From UHGV virus genome UHGV-2192570: DNA of 21,366 bases; one strand, written 5' to 3'. A program made the position numbers. Positions 9,001-15,000 of the stretch are shown here, in pieces; positions within the stretch are counted from its first letter, which is position 1, and each line of letters begins with the position of its first letter. The stretch comes from a virus.

Positions 9001-12000
9001 TAATGTCGTCCCACTTTTCGGAGTGTATTTTTAATTAAATCAATAGATTATGTGTAAGTGGGACAACTGGGACAACTGGGACGACGTGTTTTTGTATATA
9101 TATAAAAAAATAAATTGAGAGGATGAATTCATGAGTGAAATTACTGTTAAAAATATCTCACCTGCGGTAGCTGGCTGGTGGGCGAAGTTCAGAGACGACG
9201 GCACGGAATGGTACAGCCCGATTGCTGCATGGGCGCTTTGTGAGGTCGCCCCCTGTAATACGGGATGTGTGTATCAGGAGATACTACCCGTCTTGCCAGG
9301 TGAAGCAGGCATGGAGCCGCATTATTCTGATTGTGGGGCGTGCGAGTGCCTTTATCTGCCGGACAAGAAGTTTGTTCACTGCGGGGAGTCATGGGTATTT
9401 GCCTGGTATCCGGTTGACGATAACCATCAACGCTAAAACCAGTGAGGTGGACGTATGACAGCACAGATTGCAGCTTACGGGCGGCTGGTGGACGACCCGC
9501 AGGTAAAACAGACCAGCAAGGGTACACCCATGACGCTGGCGCGTATGGCGGTATCTTTGCCATGCAGTCAGGCACAGGACGGACAGGCGACGTTATGGCT
9601 ATCAGTCCTGGCATTTGGTAAGCAGGCCGACGCGCTGGCGAGACATGAAAAAGGTGACCTTATCAGCGTGGCGGGTAACATGCAGATCAGCCAGTGGACC
9701 GGACAGAACGGAGAAATACGGCAGGGCTGGCAGGTTATCGCTGACAGCGTAATCAGTGCCCGTTCGGCGCGTCCTGGCGGGAAGCGGGGGCAACAGGGGA
9801 AGGCGACCGAAGCACTGGAAAGAGCAAAACGACAGACCGGACAGCAGGGAAATCAGCCACCAGCGGGAGGTGATGACCCGTTCTCTGACGATATTCCTTT
9901 CTGAATGACAGGAGCACAACATGAACCAGCAGACCACACAACAGGACCAGACCACACGCAGACCCACGGAGCGCCCATCATGGCGACACATGACGAAGCG
10001 GCAGCGAAAAAACCACAGACGCGTAAACCGACTGGCTGAGTACTGGCCTGAACTGTTTGGGGCAGAGACGATAAAGCCCCTGAAAACGGGCATAATACGT
10101 GATGTGCTTGAGGACGCTAAATCACGGGAATTACCGATTGGTCATGGCGTATTACGTGGCGCATTAACCTCATACATCCACACGACGCGATACCTGAAAG
10201 CCATTGTCGCTGGTGGCCCTCGGTATGGACTGAACGGGCAGCCTTGCGGGGAAGTGACGTCGGATGAAAAAGCCGTAGCCCGTGGGATACTGAAACAGCG
10301 ACTGGAGCAGATGAAGCAGAAAAACATCCAGCAGTAATCAGCCGGAGGTAAAGCCAGTGATAACGGACAGCGTGGCACAGAAACTTGAGGAGCGCGGTTT
10401 ATGGCGACGTGCGGCGACCCGATGGGCTGAGGTTCTTCTTCATGCAGGAACGGACAGGGAACGCGAGGAAGCTGCCAGACGTCGGGCGATATGCATCAGT
10501 AAAACCCGTCGTATGCCTGAACAACTGGTCACCTTTGGCGATGTGAAAAAGGCCGCAGACAGAACGCTGAAAGAGATGGGGATTAATCCACAGGATGAAT
10601 GGAGAAGTTACAGCTTCAGTGATGCAGGCGACGATTTAGCGCTATCGTGATACGCATCTCATCGCCGTATTTGCTCAATTATCGCGATTCGCTATAATCA
10701 CCACCGAAGAGCCGTTGATGGTGTTCGCCTCTGGCAACTGGAGCCAGACTGCATGAAGCCAGTCAGCGGCTTTTCAGCACTCATTTTGATGTGTACTTGT
10801 CACACACATCGGGATGAGTGAATGACGAAAACATCACGGTGATTTCGTCATGCCGCGATAAGAATGTTCCCCTTTGGGCAATTGAAGCCCTCTGTGCAGA
10901 AGGTTATCGCGGTCAGGTTGTGATAAAAACGCGCCTCTTTGAGCAATTGAAGCTCACTGTAAAGCGGCTTATCACAGCAGGCTGTAACGGGCGCTCATCT
11001 TCTGGCAACTGAAGCCACCTGTACAGAGACCCGTTACGGCTGACCCTGAATGATTTCGCCCCGTGCAATTGAAGCACCCAGCGGAGTTATTCAGGGTTTT
11101 TTATTGCCCCTCCACCAGCACCACATCTGTAGCATTGATGCGTATACATTCGCCGTCAATTGCACCATTCCGGCCCTCACCGTCACGCACCACAACAGAA
11201 TGACCAGGCAGGCCATAACGCGCCACCTTTCGACGAACACCATCACCAGCGCCCTCACGACGCTCAAACACATTAATCCGCTCAAGAAGACCATCACGCA
11301 CCATAGCTTCCAGCGTGCGCCTTGTTGATTCGATCTGATACCGGCTGTTGAATGAATCCATACCATGCAGCAGGTAAGCCACACCGGAGACATCAAACGG
11401 CGGGTTGCCAATTTCAACGCTGACCCACGCCAGATTGTCGGGAGTGAAGTAACTGAGGATCTCTTTTTTGTATTGCGTCAGTCTCATAATGGCCTTTCTT
11501 ATTGTAGGATGAGTCCCTCATACAATAAGCCATAAGGCAAATTTTGAAAGGACAGAATCGGCGAGGGCAACAGGTGATACGTGATGACAAGGTTGAAGCG
11601 CTGGAAGCACAAGGGTTATGCGATGGGTTGCGGCAATATGAGGCAAATATGAATATTCAAATTGTTGTGTTGTGAGGTACGCAAGATGAAAAAAATTGAT
11701 TCTTTACGAATAAGTAAAGTAGCTATTATATCAGTATCTTTATTATTTCTTAGCGCGTGTTCTACAAATAATATTGAGAATATGCCGAGAGATGCGCGTG
11801 TAAAATTTGCTCTAATGAGGGCTTATTCAGATAACAAGTTTGATAATTCAACAGTTATCGGCGAAGTGTTAGGATTGAGTTGCGCCAGACAACTTGGAAA
11901 AACATTAGTAACACCATTGCCAGGGGGAAGCGCTATTGCTACATCCTCTGAGGGCGACATTACTTCTGAGTCGGATGCAATACAGGACATGCGATATAAA

Positions 12001-15000
12001 GCCGCAATGATGGGAGGTGATGCCATAGTGAACGTTGTATGTAAATCAGGTGGTGTTGACTGGATTCATAACTGTTGGTCAACTGTTAAGTGCGTTGGTG
12101 ATGTAATAAAAAAATAACAGTTGCCATACTGAAGGTATTGATTAATACATGGAAACTGCAATTACGACGTGTGATTGCAGCTTACCGTTAGCTACCCCTG
12201 TTACAATTGCCCTCTTCCATCACAGCAAAATGCTACCCCCTTCACAGCCCCCTCGGAAGCCCCTCCGATGGGGTGAAAAATCCCTGAAAAACTGCGCAAA
12301 AAACTGCGCAAATCGATCATAAAACCGATCACAAAACCGATCACACAGACAAACAGAGCAAAGCCAGATATGACGCGGCTTGCAGGGGGATAGACCACCT
12401 CAAAAAGTGCGCAAAAAAATGCGCAAAACGAAACGCAACAGCCGCGCAAAACGAAACCGATACGCGATGATCGAAAAAGCGCGCAAATTTACCGGATTCG
12501 GGTAAGCAATTTTGCCTGATTTGGGCAAAATACGGTGTCGCCGTAACAGTGACATTGACACCAAAACAGTGACACACAGGAGGGCCGATGACCGAACGTT
12601 CACCAACAGAGATAATTCACGGGATTATTGAAGAGCAGGAGGAGCGTGAGTTAATCCTCATGATTGAAGAGCAGAGAGAACGCCAGCGCAAACAGGACGG
12701 CACGCAGTCGGACAGCGTGAGCGCAGAAAATTATGCGCGTGTTGTGGCTGATGTGCCGTGATGGTGTCGAACAGAGTAACTTAAAGTCACTCTGTGACCA
12801 GTTTTAAACGAGTCGCAAAAAGAGCCGGAGAAAAACCACGAATCTGGGGTTTTTTCTAAGCACGCTGTACACGGTGGAACATATGGTGGTCAGGAGACGG
12901 CAGGAGCAACGCCAGAACGCGCCCCGTACCAGTGGCATAAGCCGGAGCGGTTACGGCGGTAACTTGTTGATATTGTTCCAGAGTGCAAATTTGCACTTTG
13001 GCGCTGTAACTTACTGACCTTAAAGCAAAGCGCAAAATTGCGCCGCCTAGTGATGTAAGTATCTGGTATTGTTACAAAGCTCATTTTTGAGCTTTGGCCT
13101 AACCTACTGATATTTTCGGAAACCTCAATTTGAGGAGACCGCAAACGCAAAATTGCGCTGGCTACATCCCTCGCTTCTGAGGACTGTTAACAAGCTGCCT
13201 GAAAGACAGTCACAAGCTACGAAATTTTCGTAGGTCAACTTCTATCCAGTACATACCCAGAATTACGGGTATGTAACCACAGCTATTACGAGGTGATCGT
13301 TGATGCGTGACATTCAGCAGGTTCTGGAACGATGGGGAGCGTGGGCGGCAAATAATCACGAGGATGTGACCTGGTCATCCGTTGCTGCCGGATTTAAGGG
13401 ACTGATCCCCGAAAAAGTAAAATCACGTCCACAGTGCTGTGACGATGATGCGATGGTGATATGCGGGTGCATAGCCCGCCTTTACCGGAACAATCGCGAT
13501 CTGCATGACTTGCTGGTTGATTACTACGTGCTGGGGAAAACGTTTATGGCGCTGGCACGTAAGCATGGATGCTCTGATGGACATATCGGAAAGCGGCTAC
13601 AGAAAGCGGAAGGTGTTGTTGAAGGCATGCTGATGATGCTGGATGTGAAGCTGGAGATGGATCGGTATGTTGAGCGCGATTCAGTGACGGCATAACGCGC
13701 ATAAAAAAAACCGCAGCCATGAGGAAACTGCGGTGGAGAAATACGGCTTGCCAATCAATCATGAAAAACGTAATCGCCTGATAATTATGCCACGAGACAA
13801 AGGACGGTGCACCCTGAATGGTCATAATGACCACTCAGACCATCAAGGCAACCATAACGAACATCGTTACGGTTGGAACTTTTACCCCATTGGGGGAAAA
13901 GGTGCATACCTGAATCATCATTATGGTGATCAAGGGTATGTAAAGCCCACCAGCCTGATTAAAGGTTAACCGGAAAAAGCCAGGTATGGAGGGAGTGGTT
14001 AGCCACGAACAAGCCGGACACCGCGCCAGTAAAAACCACAGATTCGTGCTTTTCTTCAGCCAGGGTAAGAACGCCACGGGGATTAATCCGTCGTGCTGGT
14101 GGAATCAGTCGGCAGCATGACGAACAGGCCGCGCAGCCGGACACCGCCAGCAGAAGGTATTATGATTTTCGTAATACCTTTAGCAAAGCGTGAATCATCA
14201 TTACCGTAGGGATGGTCATAATGACCACACCTTCCCCCACCGGAACAAGGAAGGCTGGCCTACGAAAATTTCGTAAAATTCCCCCCAAAATCCCTCCCAC
14301 GGTTGCCCGTTAAGTGCAAGCGCACAGGAACGACCTCGTTAACCAGTTACCAGCGCTCACGCTCAAATATCCACATGAACGGGGATAAATCGCATTCTGG
14401 CGCAATGTTCACTATCGGGGCGAGCATTCAGCGGAAAGCGTCATACAGGCTTACAGGCGGCTTAAAATTCGATGGACGGAGGACCGGATGGGAATCGGGA
14501 GACCTGGACAAAAAGTGCAGGCCTCCATGACACGGTCAGGACAGTTTGTGTTTAACCAGAATATTTAGCGCCTGTATCGGGGCTTCGTGGAGTTCCCGCA
14601 GACATTCAGGGTCAGTTACATGTTCCTGGTATCTTGTTTTCTCAAGTAACAAGCGGTGCATGTGCAGCATACGGGCAAGAGCCGCGCACACCTCCTCAAA
14701 TGCGGTATCCCGCTTACCGTCACTGTCAGAGCCACAAAACAGCGGCACAACCTCCACGCCGTCGCTGTGGGCCTTTAGCCAGGCATCAACCACGGTTAAA
14801 TCATCGGTGAAGAACCACGCACTGTTAGCGCTGAATCGCATTTTCCAGGCTTCCGGTACTGGTTGCGGGGAGTATGAATATGCTGGTGGTATCTTGTCGT
14901 GAGTATCCATAGGCTATCGTTCCGTCATTCTGTTATTCACCACGGCGCTAAAAACGCCATGAAGGACCAGAATACCGATTGCCTCGTTTGCTGTATGAGG

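What the first reader, a model, noticed from the sequence alone, without database searches (positions are those of the whole stretch)
11686..12117. AT-rich lipoprotein gene at the island boundary
A strongly AT-rich gene encodes a 144-aa protein with a signal peptide and LSAC lipobox, sitting between the island-like and lambdoid-like parts. Small prophage lipoproteins in such positions are often superinfection-exclusion or envelope-stress factors. The C-terminus loosely recalls DUF1471-type domains, but that is a weak impression.
Basis: partly seen in the sequence, partly recalled or inferred. Interest (0 to 1): 0.4.

Follow-up and report, generated by a model that had tools for sequence, protein, structure and literature searches.

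The report
Mobile-element RcsF-like outer-membrane lipoprotein
This AT-rich gene encodes a small lipoprotein that is a stripped-down, phage-borne relative of RcsF, the sensor of the enterobacterial envelope-stress (capsule) pathway, so it probably lets a mobile element alter the host's cell-envelope signalling; no function has been tested.

Summary
The ORF is real: 11686-12117 (+), 143 aa (not 144), with a GAGG ribosome-binding site, a signal peptide and an LSAC lipobox. GC is 0.38 against 0.50 for the island. Its family is under strong purifying selection.

It differs from RcsF in three ways: the tether is about 8 residues instead of about 30, an 18-residue clade-specific insertion sits in a loop, and the IgaA-contact loop is remodelled.

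Close homologues (52-61% identity) lie between antiterminator Q and the lysis genes of Serratia and Pantoea lambdoid phages. One is already annotated "RcsF-like".

In the window the gene is a 608-bp swappable cargo cassette. It lies 3.3 kb inside the right end of a tRNA-Gly P4-like island, not at the island boundary.

The most likely role is an RcsF mimic that perturbs Rcs/BamA-OMP envelope signalling, a form of lysogenic conversion or phage exclusion. This mechanism is inferred, not shown.

The parts
11686..12117 (+). CDS (stop codon included) for a 143-aa prolipoprotein, a short-tether RcsF-like outer-membrane lipoprotein. It is identical to E. coli WP_000717788.1, which RefSeq annotates as 'hypothetical protein'.
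   Evidence: ORF and translation. Protein 100% identical to cluster P0001. DNA 100% identical in 19 of 5426 complete E. coli genomes. RcsF relationship.
11674..11677 (+). Shine-Dalgarno-like GAGG, 8 nt upstream of the ATG
   Evidence: Read directly from the sequence. It supports ATG 11686 over the upstream in-frame TTG at 11662.
11686..11757 (+). Signal peptide (residues 1-24) ending in the lipobox L22-S23-A24, followed by Cys25 (codon 11758-11760)
   Evidence: Rule-based lipobox check passed, with Ser-Thr at +2/+3. The lipobox Cys is invariant in the 20-member family alignment and aligns with RcsF Cys16.
11758..12114 (+). Mature protein: a tether of about 8 residues, then the RcsF-fold domain with four conserved cysteines (C66, C119, C130, C136). 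These align with RcsF C74, C109, C118 and C124.
11884..11967 (+). Enlarged loop (residues 67-94) holding the insertion of about 18 residues that is specific to the phage/island clade. It lies between the strand ending in C66 and the main helix.
   Evidence: The spacing between the first and second domain Cys is 53 residues in this clade only, 35-36 in nearly all other relatives and 35 in RcsF. The loop has low pLDDT, but G81 and A85 are invariant and a GGN[IL]FA motif is shared by all homologues except the window protein.
11606..12213 (+). Cargo cassette: the gene with about 80 bp upstream and about 95 bp downstream. In the related island of E. coli E2855 the same slot holds a PerC-family gene.
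   Evidence: blastn breakpoints against L011: shared up to 11605, resuming at 12214. Annotation of L011. Low-GC segment.
11101..11487 (-). Divergently transcribed 128-aa backbone gene of unknown function. It flanks the cargo slot whatever the cargo.
   Evidence: Present next to the slot in L001, L002 and L011. No Pfam or PADLOC hit.
15416..15432 (+). attR remnant: the 3' end of tRNA-Gly with a 1-nt deletion. This is the true right boundary of the island that carries the gene.
   Evidence: Comparison with tRNA-Gly in L002 and with the island-free locus in E. coli LR-29-1.

Best explanation
What it is (well supported, about 0.9). The gene encodes an outer-membrane-type lipoprotein whose mature part is an RcsF-fold domain. 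It has the four RcsF cysteines, so two disulfides are predicted: C66-C130 and C119-C136. It belongs to a small clade found in Escherichia, Pantoea and Serratia and carried by mobile elements. In lambdoid phages the gene sits as an insulated unit between antiterminator Q and the lysis genes. Here it is a low-GC, swappable cargo cassette inside a 15.4-kb P4-like island integrated at tRNA-Gly.

How it most likely works (inferred, about 0.35-0.4). It acts as an RcsF mimic in the periplasm. It lacks the disordered linker of about 30 residues through which BamA and the outer-membrane porins thread and sequester RcsF. The loop that appears to correspond to RcsF's BamA-contacting tip is enlarged. The protein should therefore not be handled like RcsF. 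Instead it should disturb RcsF's partner network, either by engaging IgaA directly or by competing with RcsF for BamA and the porins. Both routes are predicted to switch the Rcs phosphorelay on. Rcs activation gives a colanic-acid capsule, represses flagella and, in EHEC, changes LEE expression through RcsB and GrvA. The element would gain phage exclusion and envelope or virulence conversion of its host.

Shown here: the ORF, the lipobox, the fold, the cysteines, the missing linker, the insertion, the synteny and the cassette nature. Inferred: localisation, disulfides, binding partners, and the direction of any effect on Rcs.
For: Homology. The family profile A1 finds 151 relatives among 1.84 billion representatives. 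Of the 104 aligned, 78 match Pfam RcsF PF16358. P0023 passes the RcsF gathering score at 38 bits against a cut-off of 29. The A2 profile hits RcsF chains 6t1w_C, 2y1b and 2l8y at E 1e-15 to 1e-13. hhalign of A1 against E. coli RcsF gives E=3e-4 with all five Cys aligned.

Tether. Lipobox Cys to first domain Cys is 41 residues against 58 in RcsF. The segment has 2.5% Pro against 16% in RcsF.

Literature. Deleting the RcsF linker (residues 19-47) leaves RcsF in the inner membrane and turns Rcs on constitutively (bioRxiv 10.1101/2021.01.05.425367). An RcsF-mimicking peptide activates Rcs 3-4 fold (PMC10710380). RcsF overexpression activates Rcs (PMC7917084). Rcs activation and colanic acid block phage adsorption (PMC12557735; PMC7532286, listed). 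RcsB acts on LEE through GrvA (PMC10877973).

Mobile-element cargo. The homologue in Serratia phage BZS1 is 57.5% identical and lies between Q and holin. The same synteny holds in most of 8 IMG/VR contigs and in Pantoea prophage remnants. Terminator-like hairpins bracket the phage gene. The slot holds a different gene in E2855. All named hosts of the close clade are Enterobacterales, which have Rcs.
Against: The query itself does not reach the Pfam or NCBIfam RcsF thresholds: no Pfam RcsF hit at E<=1, and NF008048 scores 13.6 bits against a cut-off of 140.

The RcsF residues that contact IgaA (A55, L58, G60-D65; PMC13317618; PMC9907809) are not conserved. The loop is 3 residues longer, there is no R64/D65 equivalent, and two aligners disagree on the equivalent of F63.

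RcsF needs its 32-residue linker to reach IgaA across the periplasm (PMC5736177). A correctly sorted short-tether protein might therefore not reach IgaA.

The nearest relatives outside the clade include proteins attributed to Geovibrio and Desulfobacteraceae. These lie outside the Enterobacteriaceae to which the literature assigns Rcs (PMC7917084), so the ancestral role of short-tether RcsF-like proteins probably does not involve Rcs.

No sigma-70-like promoter was found upstream of the window gene. Nothing here measures binding, localisation or phenotype.
Confidence: 0.4

Rival explanations
1. Rcs-independent receptor or BAM blocker. [quoted passage not shown] This would exclude phages that use these proteins as receptors or entry routes, in the manner of Llp or Cor but with a different fold.
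For: RcsF lodges inside the BamA barrel lumen. Its main contact is through the beta1-alpha1 'tip' loop (bioRxiv 10.1101/823146). That loop appears to be where this clade carries its conserved 18-residue insertion. Short-tether RcsF-like proteins occur in taxa outside the Enterobacteriaceae, which points to a partner other than IgaA. The gene is insulated phage cargo. From my own recall, not checked here: BamA, OmpC, OmpF and OmpA are receptors of E. coli phages, including short-tailed Stx phages, and the E. coli carriers include STEC O145:H28 and O157:H7.
Against: There is no sequence or profile link to known exclusion lipoproteins or defence systems. Mapping the insertion onto the BamA-contact loop rests on my reading of the paper's loop nomenclature and on a low-confidence part of the model. 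A larger loop could just as well abolish BamA binding.
Confidence: 0.25
2. Rcs damper. The protein binds IgaA non-productively, or otherwise holds Rcs off. This would keep induction or superinfection from triggering capsule synthesis and other Rcs outputs that would hinder the element or its helper phage.
For: The fold and cysteines are those of RcsF, but the IgaA-contact loop is remodelled. In phages the gene lies at the head of the late region, where it would be made in quantity during lytic growth.
Against: Known perturbations of RcsF handling activate rather than repress Rcs: linker deletion, mimic peptide and overexpression. Terminator-like hairpins on both sides suggest an autonomous unit expressed in lysogens.
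Confidence: 0.1
3. Lysis-associated accessory protein. This is the suggestion of the phage BZS1 authors: an envelope lipoprotein that tunes the timing or efficiency of holin/endolysin/spanin lysis.
For: The gene lies immediately upstream of holin or lysozyme in phage BZS1, in most of the 8 IMG/VR contigs and in Pantoea prophage remnants. The BZS1 authors speculate on this role (PMC7556043).
Against: A conserved terminator-like hairpin separates the gene from holin. BZS1 already has Rz and Rz1. In the E. coli island and in one Pantoea chromosomal locus there is no lysis cassette nearby.
Confidence: 0.1
4. YbjQ/UPF0145-type or DUF1471-type small protein with no connection to RcsF biology. 'YbjQ' is the name JGI gives it; DUF1471 was the first reader's impression.
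Against: Both Pfam hits fall below their gathering scores. RcsF is the top structural match. All four domain cysteines and the lipobox Cys align with those of RcsF. There is no Pfam DUF1471 hit at E<=1.
Confidence: 0.05

Closest known systems
RcsF (E. coli P69411; Pfam PF16358; PDB 2Y1B, 2L8Y, 6T1W, 9BIY), the outer-membrane lipoprotein sensor of the Rcs envelope-stress phosphorelay
   Different: The tether is about 8 residues rather than a Pro/Lys-rich linker of about 30. An 18-residue insertion follows the first domain Cys. The IgaA-contact loop is remodelled. The C-terminal motif is DW.HNCWSTVKCVGD rather than TSGTPGCYRQAVCIGS. It is mobile-element cargo in 0.35% of complete E. coli genomes, not a core gene. 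It falls below the RcsF HMM thresholds.
phiBZS1_p65 of Serratia phage vB_SspM_BZS1 (QNO00959.1), annotated 'RcsF-like outer membrane lipoprotein'
   Same: The same clade: 57.5% identity over 89% of the protein, with the same short tether, insertion and cysteines. It is carried by a mobile element near a Q antiterminator gene.
   Different: In the phage the gene lies downstream of Q and directly upstream of holin, bracketed by terminator-like hairpins. In the window it lies upstream of a Q gene in a satellite-like island with no lysis genes. The window copy is the most divergent and most AT-rich member: GC of the mature-protein region is 0.41 against 0.45-0.50 for the homologues. Neither protein has been tested (PMC7556043).
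Short-tether 'NCW-motif' RcsF-like lipoproteins from metagenomes and diverse diderm bacteria (most match Pfam RcsF)
   Same: Short tether: lipobox Cys to first domain Cys has a median of 42 residues. The G.DW..NCW.S..C.GDA C-terminal motif and the four cysteines are shared.
   Different: They lack the 18-residue insertion (35-36 residues between the first two domain Cys). Named sources include Geovibrio and Desulfobacteraceae. Some are fused to trypsin-like peptidase, Sel1 or SHOCT domains.
Phage lysogenic-conversion and exclusion lipoproteins (lambda Bor, T5 Llp, phi80/N15 Cor); listed from my own knowledge
   Same: Small outer-membrane lipoproteins encoded as accessory genes of temperate phages. 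They alter the host envelope or block receptors.
   Different: No homology was detected: nothing significant in PHROGs or PADLOC. The fold is different, and the partner and phenotype are unknown here.

Membership tests
Bacterial lipoprotein (signal peptidase II substrate) | Positively charged n-region, hydrophobic h-region, lipobox [LVI][ASTVI][GAS]C with the Cys at about position 15-35 | tested here: met
   MKKIDSLRISKVAIISVSLLFLSAC passes the PROSITE-type rule, with Cys25. The lipobox Cys is invariant in 20 homologues.
Bacterial lipoprotein (signal peptidase II substrate) | Outer-membrane sorting (no Asp at +2) and actual lipidation and localisation | not testable with these tools
   Residues +2/+3 are Ser-Thr, which fits default outer-membrane sorting. 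Linker-less RcsF is partly retained in the inner membrane, so localisation needs fractionation.
RcsF (Pfam PF16358 / NCBIfam NF008048) | Score above the curated HMM threshold | tested here: not met
   No PF16358 hit at E<=1. NF008048 scores 13.6 bits against a cut-off of 140. Intermediate relatives do pass: 78 of 104 match, and P0023 scores 38 bits against 29.
RcsF (Pfam PF16358 / NCBIfam NF008048) | RcsF alpha/beta fold of the periplasmic domain | tested here: met
RcsF (Pfam PF16358 / NCBIfam NF008048) | Four conserved cysteines forming two non-consecutive disulfides | tested here: met
   C66, C119, C130 and C136 align with C74, C109, C118 and C124. They are invariant in the clade and 95-100% conserved in A2. 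Disulfide formation itself was not tested.
RcsF (Pfam PF16358 / NCBIfam NF008048) | Disordered, Pro-rich N-terminal linker of about 30 residues, used for threading through porins and for reaching IgaA | tested here: not met
   About 8 residues separate Cys25 from the start of the folded domain. Cys-to-Cys spacing is 41 against 58, and Pro content is 2.5% against 16%. The feature is defined in PMC5736177 and PMC7917084.
RcsF (Pfam PF16358 / NCBIfam NF008048) | IgaA-binding loop (E. coli A55, L58, G60, K61, P62, F63, R64, D65) | tested here: inconclusive
   The loop is 3 residues longer and has no R64/D65 equivalent. hhalign and MAFFT place the aromatic residue differently. Interface residues are from PMC13317618 and PMC9907809. 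No complex prediction was possible.
RcsF (Pfam PF16358 / NCBIfam NF008048) | Core chromosomal gene of Enterobacterales that acts upstream of IgaA and RcsCDB | tested here: not met
   Present in 19 of 5426 complete E. coli genomes, always inside an integrase island. Elsewhere it is in phages or prophages. Signalling was not tested.
YbjQ / UPF0145 (Pfam PF01906) | HMM threshold | tested here: not met
Phage 'moron' / mobile-element cargo cassette | Dispensable gene between conserved modules, with atypical composition and its own transcription signals | tested here: inconclusive
   Met: low GC; the slot holds a PerC-family gene in E2855; terminator-like hairpins before and after the phage homologues. 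Not met: the consensus scan found no promoter upstream and no terminator downstream of the window gene on the + strand.
Known anti-phage defence or exclusion proteins (PADLOC, PHROGs) | Profile match to a catalogued family | tested here: not met
   PADLOC gave no hit. The best PHROGs hits have E>=0.05.

The most novel reading that the evidence does not exclude
Temperate phages and satellite-like islands of Enterobacterales carry a dedicated molecular mimic of the host envelope-stress sensor RcsF. It has lost the linker through which BamA and the porins keep RcsF silent, and it has gained an enlarged BamA-facing loop. Such a protein could hijack the Rcs phosphorelay or the BAM/porin machinery from the periplasm. 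The lysogen would gain a capsule-based or receptor-based shield against other phages. In STEC, the same signal could feed into RcsB-GrvA control of the LEE. That would fit the fact that the same cargo slot alternatively carries PerC-family LEE regulators.
Probability: 0.3. Interest if true: 0.75.

Novelty: new variant of a known kind. Interest (0 to 1): 0.5.

Why it matters
RcsF is the paradigm for signalling across the Gram-negative envelope. Its linker, its handling by BamA and the porins, and its contact with IgaA have been dissected by mutagenesis. This clade is a natural variant that lacks the linker, has a remodelled contact loop and an enlarged tip loop, is conserved under purifying selection, and moves on phages and islands. 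If it activates or blocks Rcs, it would be a clear case of a mobile element manipulating a host envelope-stress pathway by sensor mimicry. Consequences could include phage exclusion, capsule, motility, biofilm and, in STEC, LEE expression. It would also be a ready-made probe of how RcsF's partners discriminate their ligand. If it does not act through Rcs, it points to an unknown conserved partner of RcsF-like domains in bacteria that lack Rcs. At the least, the RefSeq 'hypothetical protein' and JGI 'YbjQ' labels can be replaced by 'RcsF-like lipoprotein'.

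Tried and rejected
Searches that gave nothing usable:
- Direct family searches gave only sub-threshold hits: Pfam DUF4156 and YbjQ_1, NCBIfam RcsF at E=0.053, PHROGs at E>=0.05, PADLOC nothing.
- phmmer of the protein and the shallow A1 profile against PDB sequences did not find RcsF. Only the iterated A2 profile did.
- AlphaFold with the 20-sequence alignment gave pLDDT 60 and was not used.
- The search for related loci on genome contigs failed. A2 was too diverse. A1 gave 9 pattern matches, none confirmed. Species-level distribution was therefore not obtained.
- The afdb50 fold library was unavailable.
- BFVD gave one YbjQ-like 'heavy-metal-binding' hit only.
- There is no plasmid copy.
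- A second profile search of the word-indexed database added little and gave no taxonomy for distant relatives.

Ideas tested and dropped:
- The RcsAB-box-like palindrome TATGAATATTCAAA (11648-11661) matches the consensus at 11 of 14 positions. The window has 4 such matches against 1.4 expected, and 9 of 100 shuffles reach 4, so it is not evidence.
- No sigma-70-like promoter was found upstream of the gene.
- DUF1471 membership was rejected.
- An o-spanin role was rejected. Phage BZS1 has its own Rz and Rz1, and a terminator-like hairpin separates the gene from holin.
- The upstream TTG start at 11662 was rejected in favour of ATG 11686, because of the ribosome-binding site and because most homologues start MK.

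Full report
**Observation**

The reported ORF exists as described. ATG 11686 to the stop ending at 12117 on the + strand gives 432 nt and 143 codons plus the stop, so the protein has 143 aa, not 144. GAGG at 11674-11677 lies 8 nt upstream of the ATG.

The N-terminus MKKIDSLRISKVAIISVSLLFLSAC passes a PROSITE-type lipoprotein rule. Cys25 follows L-S-A, and Ser-Thr occupy +2/+3, so there is no Asp retention signal.

The gene has GC 0.382 (GC3 0.285), against 0.497 for the rest of the island.

It is a genuine, constrained gene. Twenty homologues reach E 1e-39 to 1e-52. Unsaturated homologue pairs give dN/dS of 0.03-0.16. Between the window gene and its homologues, synonymous sites are saturated while pN is about 0.25.

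**What the protein is**

Direct searches were uninformative. Pfam gave only sub-threshold DUF4156 and YbjQ_1 hits. NCBIfam RcsF scored E=0.053. PHROGs and PADLOC gave nothing significant. Single-sequence and shallow-profile searches of PDB sequences also missed RcsF.

I then searched a profile of the 20 close homologues (A1) against 1.84 billion representatives. It recovered 151 relatives. I aligned 104 of them as A2.
- 78 of the 104 match Pfam RcsF PF16358.
- The second-best distant hit, P0023 (E=4e-18 to A1), passes the RcsF gathering score.
- The A2 profile hits E. coli RcsF chains 6T1W_C, 2Y1B, 7V8L, 2L8Y and 9BIY_B at E 1.4e-15 to 5.5e-13.
- hhalign of A1 alone against E. coli RcsF gives E=3e-4 over the full length.

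The lipobox Cys and four domain cysteines are invariant in the clade. C66, C119, C130 and C136 align with RcsF C74, C109, C118 and C124.

An AlphaFold model built with A2 has mean pLDDT 85.4. Its best PDB matches are RcsF:
- Foldseek: 2Y1B at E=2.6e-5, target-normalised TM 0.81.

**How it differs from RcsF**

1. Tether. Lipobox Cys to first domain Cys is 41 residues, against 58 in RcsF. By alignment only about 8 residues precede the folded domain, and Pro content is 2.5% against 16%. RcsF has a Pro-rich disordered linker of 30-32 residues (PMC5736177; PMC7917084).

2. Insertion. The first and second domain Cys are 53 residues apart in this clade only. The figure is 35-36 in nearly all other relatives and 35 in RcsF. 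This 18-residue insertion carries conserved residues: G81 and A85 are invariant, and a GGN[IL]FA motif is shared by all homologues except the window protein. It lies between the strand ending in the first Cys and the main helix. I read this as the beta1-alpha1 'tip' loop that makes the main contact with the BamA lumen in the BamA-RcsF structure (bioRxiv 10.1101/823146). The mapping is an inference. It is supported by the fact that K61, on the opposite 'bottom' side, crosslinks to the POTRA domains.

3. IgaA-contact loop. The RcsF loop A55-D65 contacts IgaA (PMC13317618; PMC9907809). Here it is 3 residues longer and lacks R64/D65 equivalents. Two aligners disagree on the equivalent of F63.

4. 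C-terminal motif. The motif is DW.HNCWSTVKCVGD, shared with a broad set of short-tether relatives rather than with RcsF proper. Named sources of those relatives include Pantoea, Geovibrio and Desulfobacteraceae. The last two lie outside the Enterobacteriaceae to which the Rcs literature assigns the system. Some relatives are fused to trypsin-like peptidase, Sel1 or SHOCT domains.

**Genomic context**

The window starts at an integrase gene. It then runs through Rha, AntA and Ash-family genes, a DUF927 primase, SSB, ProQ/FinO and PerC genes, the 128-aa gene on the minus strand, the lipoprotein gene, an iteron-like array and a Q-family antiterminator gene. Rfam finds an int-alpA RNA, isrK and a C4 antisense RNA. 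These features make it a P4-like or satellite-like element.

Related islands are inserted at two sites. One lies between yicC and dinD in O145:H28 RM12581. The other lies at tRNA-Gly next to ETT2 in OkiPb01712, where the island includes the Q gene.

In the window, a 17-nt remnant of the tRNA-Gly 3' end at 15416-15432 marks attR. The sequence beyond it lies directly next to tRNA-Gly in E. coli LR-29-1, which lacks the island. The gene is therefore 3.3 kb inside the island, not at its edge.

Comparison with strain E2855 shows homology up to 11605, resuming at 12214. A PerC-family gene occupies the slot there. The lipoprotein gene is thus a 608-bp cargo cassette.

The gene is present in only 19 of 5426 complete E. 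coli genomes, all 100% identical. Carriers include STEC O145:H28, some O157:H7 and bovine isolates. No plasmid carries it.

**Homologues elsewhere**

The only phage-database hit is phiBZS1_p65 of Serratia phage vB_SspM_BZS1, at 57.5% identity. It is already annotated 'RcsF-like outer membrane lipoprotein' and lies between Q and holin. Its authors noted the RcsF similarity and speculated about lysis timing, without experiments (PMC7556043).

Eight IMG/VR contigs carry homologues of 52-61% identity. In most of them a Q-type gene (from three different families) lies upstream and lysis genes lie downstream. Two Pantoea prophage remnants have lysis genes directly downstream, and one of them also retains an upstream antiterminator gene. 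A third Pantoea locus shows no phage genes.

In phage BZS1 a tR'-like hairpin precedes the gene. A conserved strong hairpin follows it in both BZS1 and a Pantoea prophage. This is the classic layout of an insulated moron.

**Mechanism**

Nothing here measures function, so this section is inference.

Three experimental precedents argue that an RcsF-like domain not handled by BamA and the porins turns Rcs on:
- RcsF lacking residues 19-47 is retained in the inner membrane and activates Rcs constitutively (bioRxiv 10.1101/2021.01.05.425367).
- An RcsF-mimicking peptide activates Rcs 3-4 fold and perturbs the outer membrane (PMC10710380).
- RcsF overexpression activates Rcs (PMC7917084).

Rcs activation and colanic acid block phage adsorption broadly (PMC12557735; PMC7532286, listed). 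In EHEC, RcsB acts on LEE through GrvA (PMC10877973).

On this basis I commit to 'RcsF mimic that perturbs the RcsF partner network, net Rcs activation, lysogenic conversion and phage exclusion' at about 0.35-0.4.

Four points count against it:
- The IgaA loop is not conserved.
- A short tether may not span the periplasm.
- The wider short-tether family occurs in taxa outside the Enterobacteriaceae.
- No promoter was detected.

The main rival, at about 0.25, is an Rcs-independent blocker of BamA or porins that uses the enlarged tip loop. An Rcs damper and a lysis accessory role are each at about 0.1.

**Novelty**

The kind, an RcsF-like lipoprotein, is known, and a phage copy has been noted once in the literature. 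New here are:
- recognition that the E. coli 'hypothetical protein' WP_000717788.1 belongs to this clade;
- the clade's defining features (no linker, 18-residue insertion, remodelled contact loop);
- its conserved slot between Q and the lysis genes;
- its presence as a swappable cassette in a P4-like island of STEC.

I rate it a new variant of a known kind, of moderate interest and readily testable.

Noticed in passing
window 12283-12491: An iteron-like array lies just downstream of the cassette. It has six copies of WGCGCAAAA, in pairs spaced 12 nt apart, plus three copies of AAAACCGAT. It is conserved in the E2855 island backbone (L011 5797-6079, 90.5% identity). It could be a replication origin or a protein-binding array of the island.
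   Followed up: partly
window 1299-1366, 5653-5729, 5754-5841: Rfam matches above the gathering score: int-alpA RNA, isrK Hfq-binding RNA and C4 antisense RNA. Together with the Icd-like, AntA and Q-family genes, they indicate P4/P1-type C4 immunity and, from my recollection of the Salmonella Gifsy-1 locus, an IsrK/AntQ-like module.
   Followed up: no
window 15416-15432 and 15433-21366: An attR remnant of tRNA-Gly (1-nt deletion) ends the island. Beyond it lies a second element that sits directly next to tRNA-Gly in E. coli LR-29-1 (99.8% identity). It carries two very AT-rich ORFs (15958-16572 and 16613-17401, GC about 0.34-0.39) with no Pfam or PADLOC hit. It also carries a phage capsid-E family gene on the minus strand, 17787-18863.
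   Followed up: partly
window 11606-12213 versus L011 5205-5796: The cargo slot holds a PerC-family regulator gene in E. coli E2855 instead of the lipoprotein gene. A YeeE/YedE transporter gene follows before Q in that strain. The slot after the 128-aa minus-strand gene is a variable region of these islands.
   Followed up: partly
proteins P0026, P0039, P0040, P0069, P0041, P0170 (metagenomic relatives): The RcsF-like lipoprotein domain is fused C-terminally to a trypsin-like peptidase domain (four proteins), to Sel1 repeats or to a SHOCT domain. Other short-tether relatives are attributed to Geovibrio and Desulfobacteraceae. RcsF-like domains therefore have roles outside the Rcs system.
   Followed up: partly
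window 12959-13164: A 44-nt direct repeat (12959-13002 and 13055-13098) has an internal palindrome in each copy. A second repeated palindrome, GCGCAAAATTGCGC, occurs at 13028-13049 and 13143-13164. Both lie upstream of the Q-family gene. They could be operators or terminators.
   Followed up: no
L003 3842-3865 and 4421-4442; L009 8434-8457: Terminator-like hairpins bracket the phage homologues. The downstream one (AAGGCTCGCTTCGGCGGGCCTT followed by a T-run) is conserved between Serratia phage BZS1 and a Pantoea prophage. No equivalent was detected after the window gene.
   Followed up: partly
window 11648-11661: The palindrome TATGAATATTCAAA lies 25 nt upstream of the ATG and matches the RcsAB-box consensus (from memory) at 11 of 14 positions. 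The number of such matches in the window is not above chance: 4 against 1.4 expected, and 9 of 100 shuffles reach 4.
   Followed up: yes
window 11101-11487 (-): A 128-aa gene is transcribed divergently from the lipoprotein gene. It is conserved in all related islands whatever the cargo, and has no Pfam or PADLOC match.
   Followed up: no
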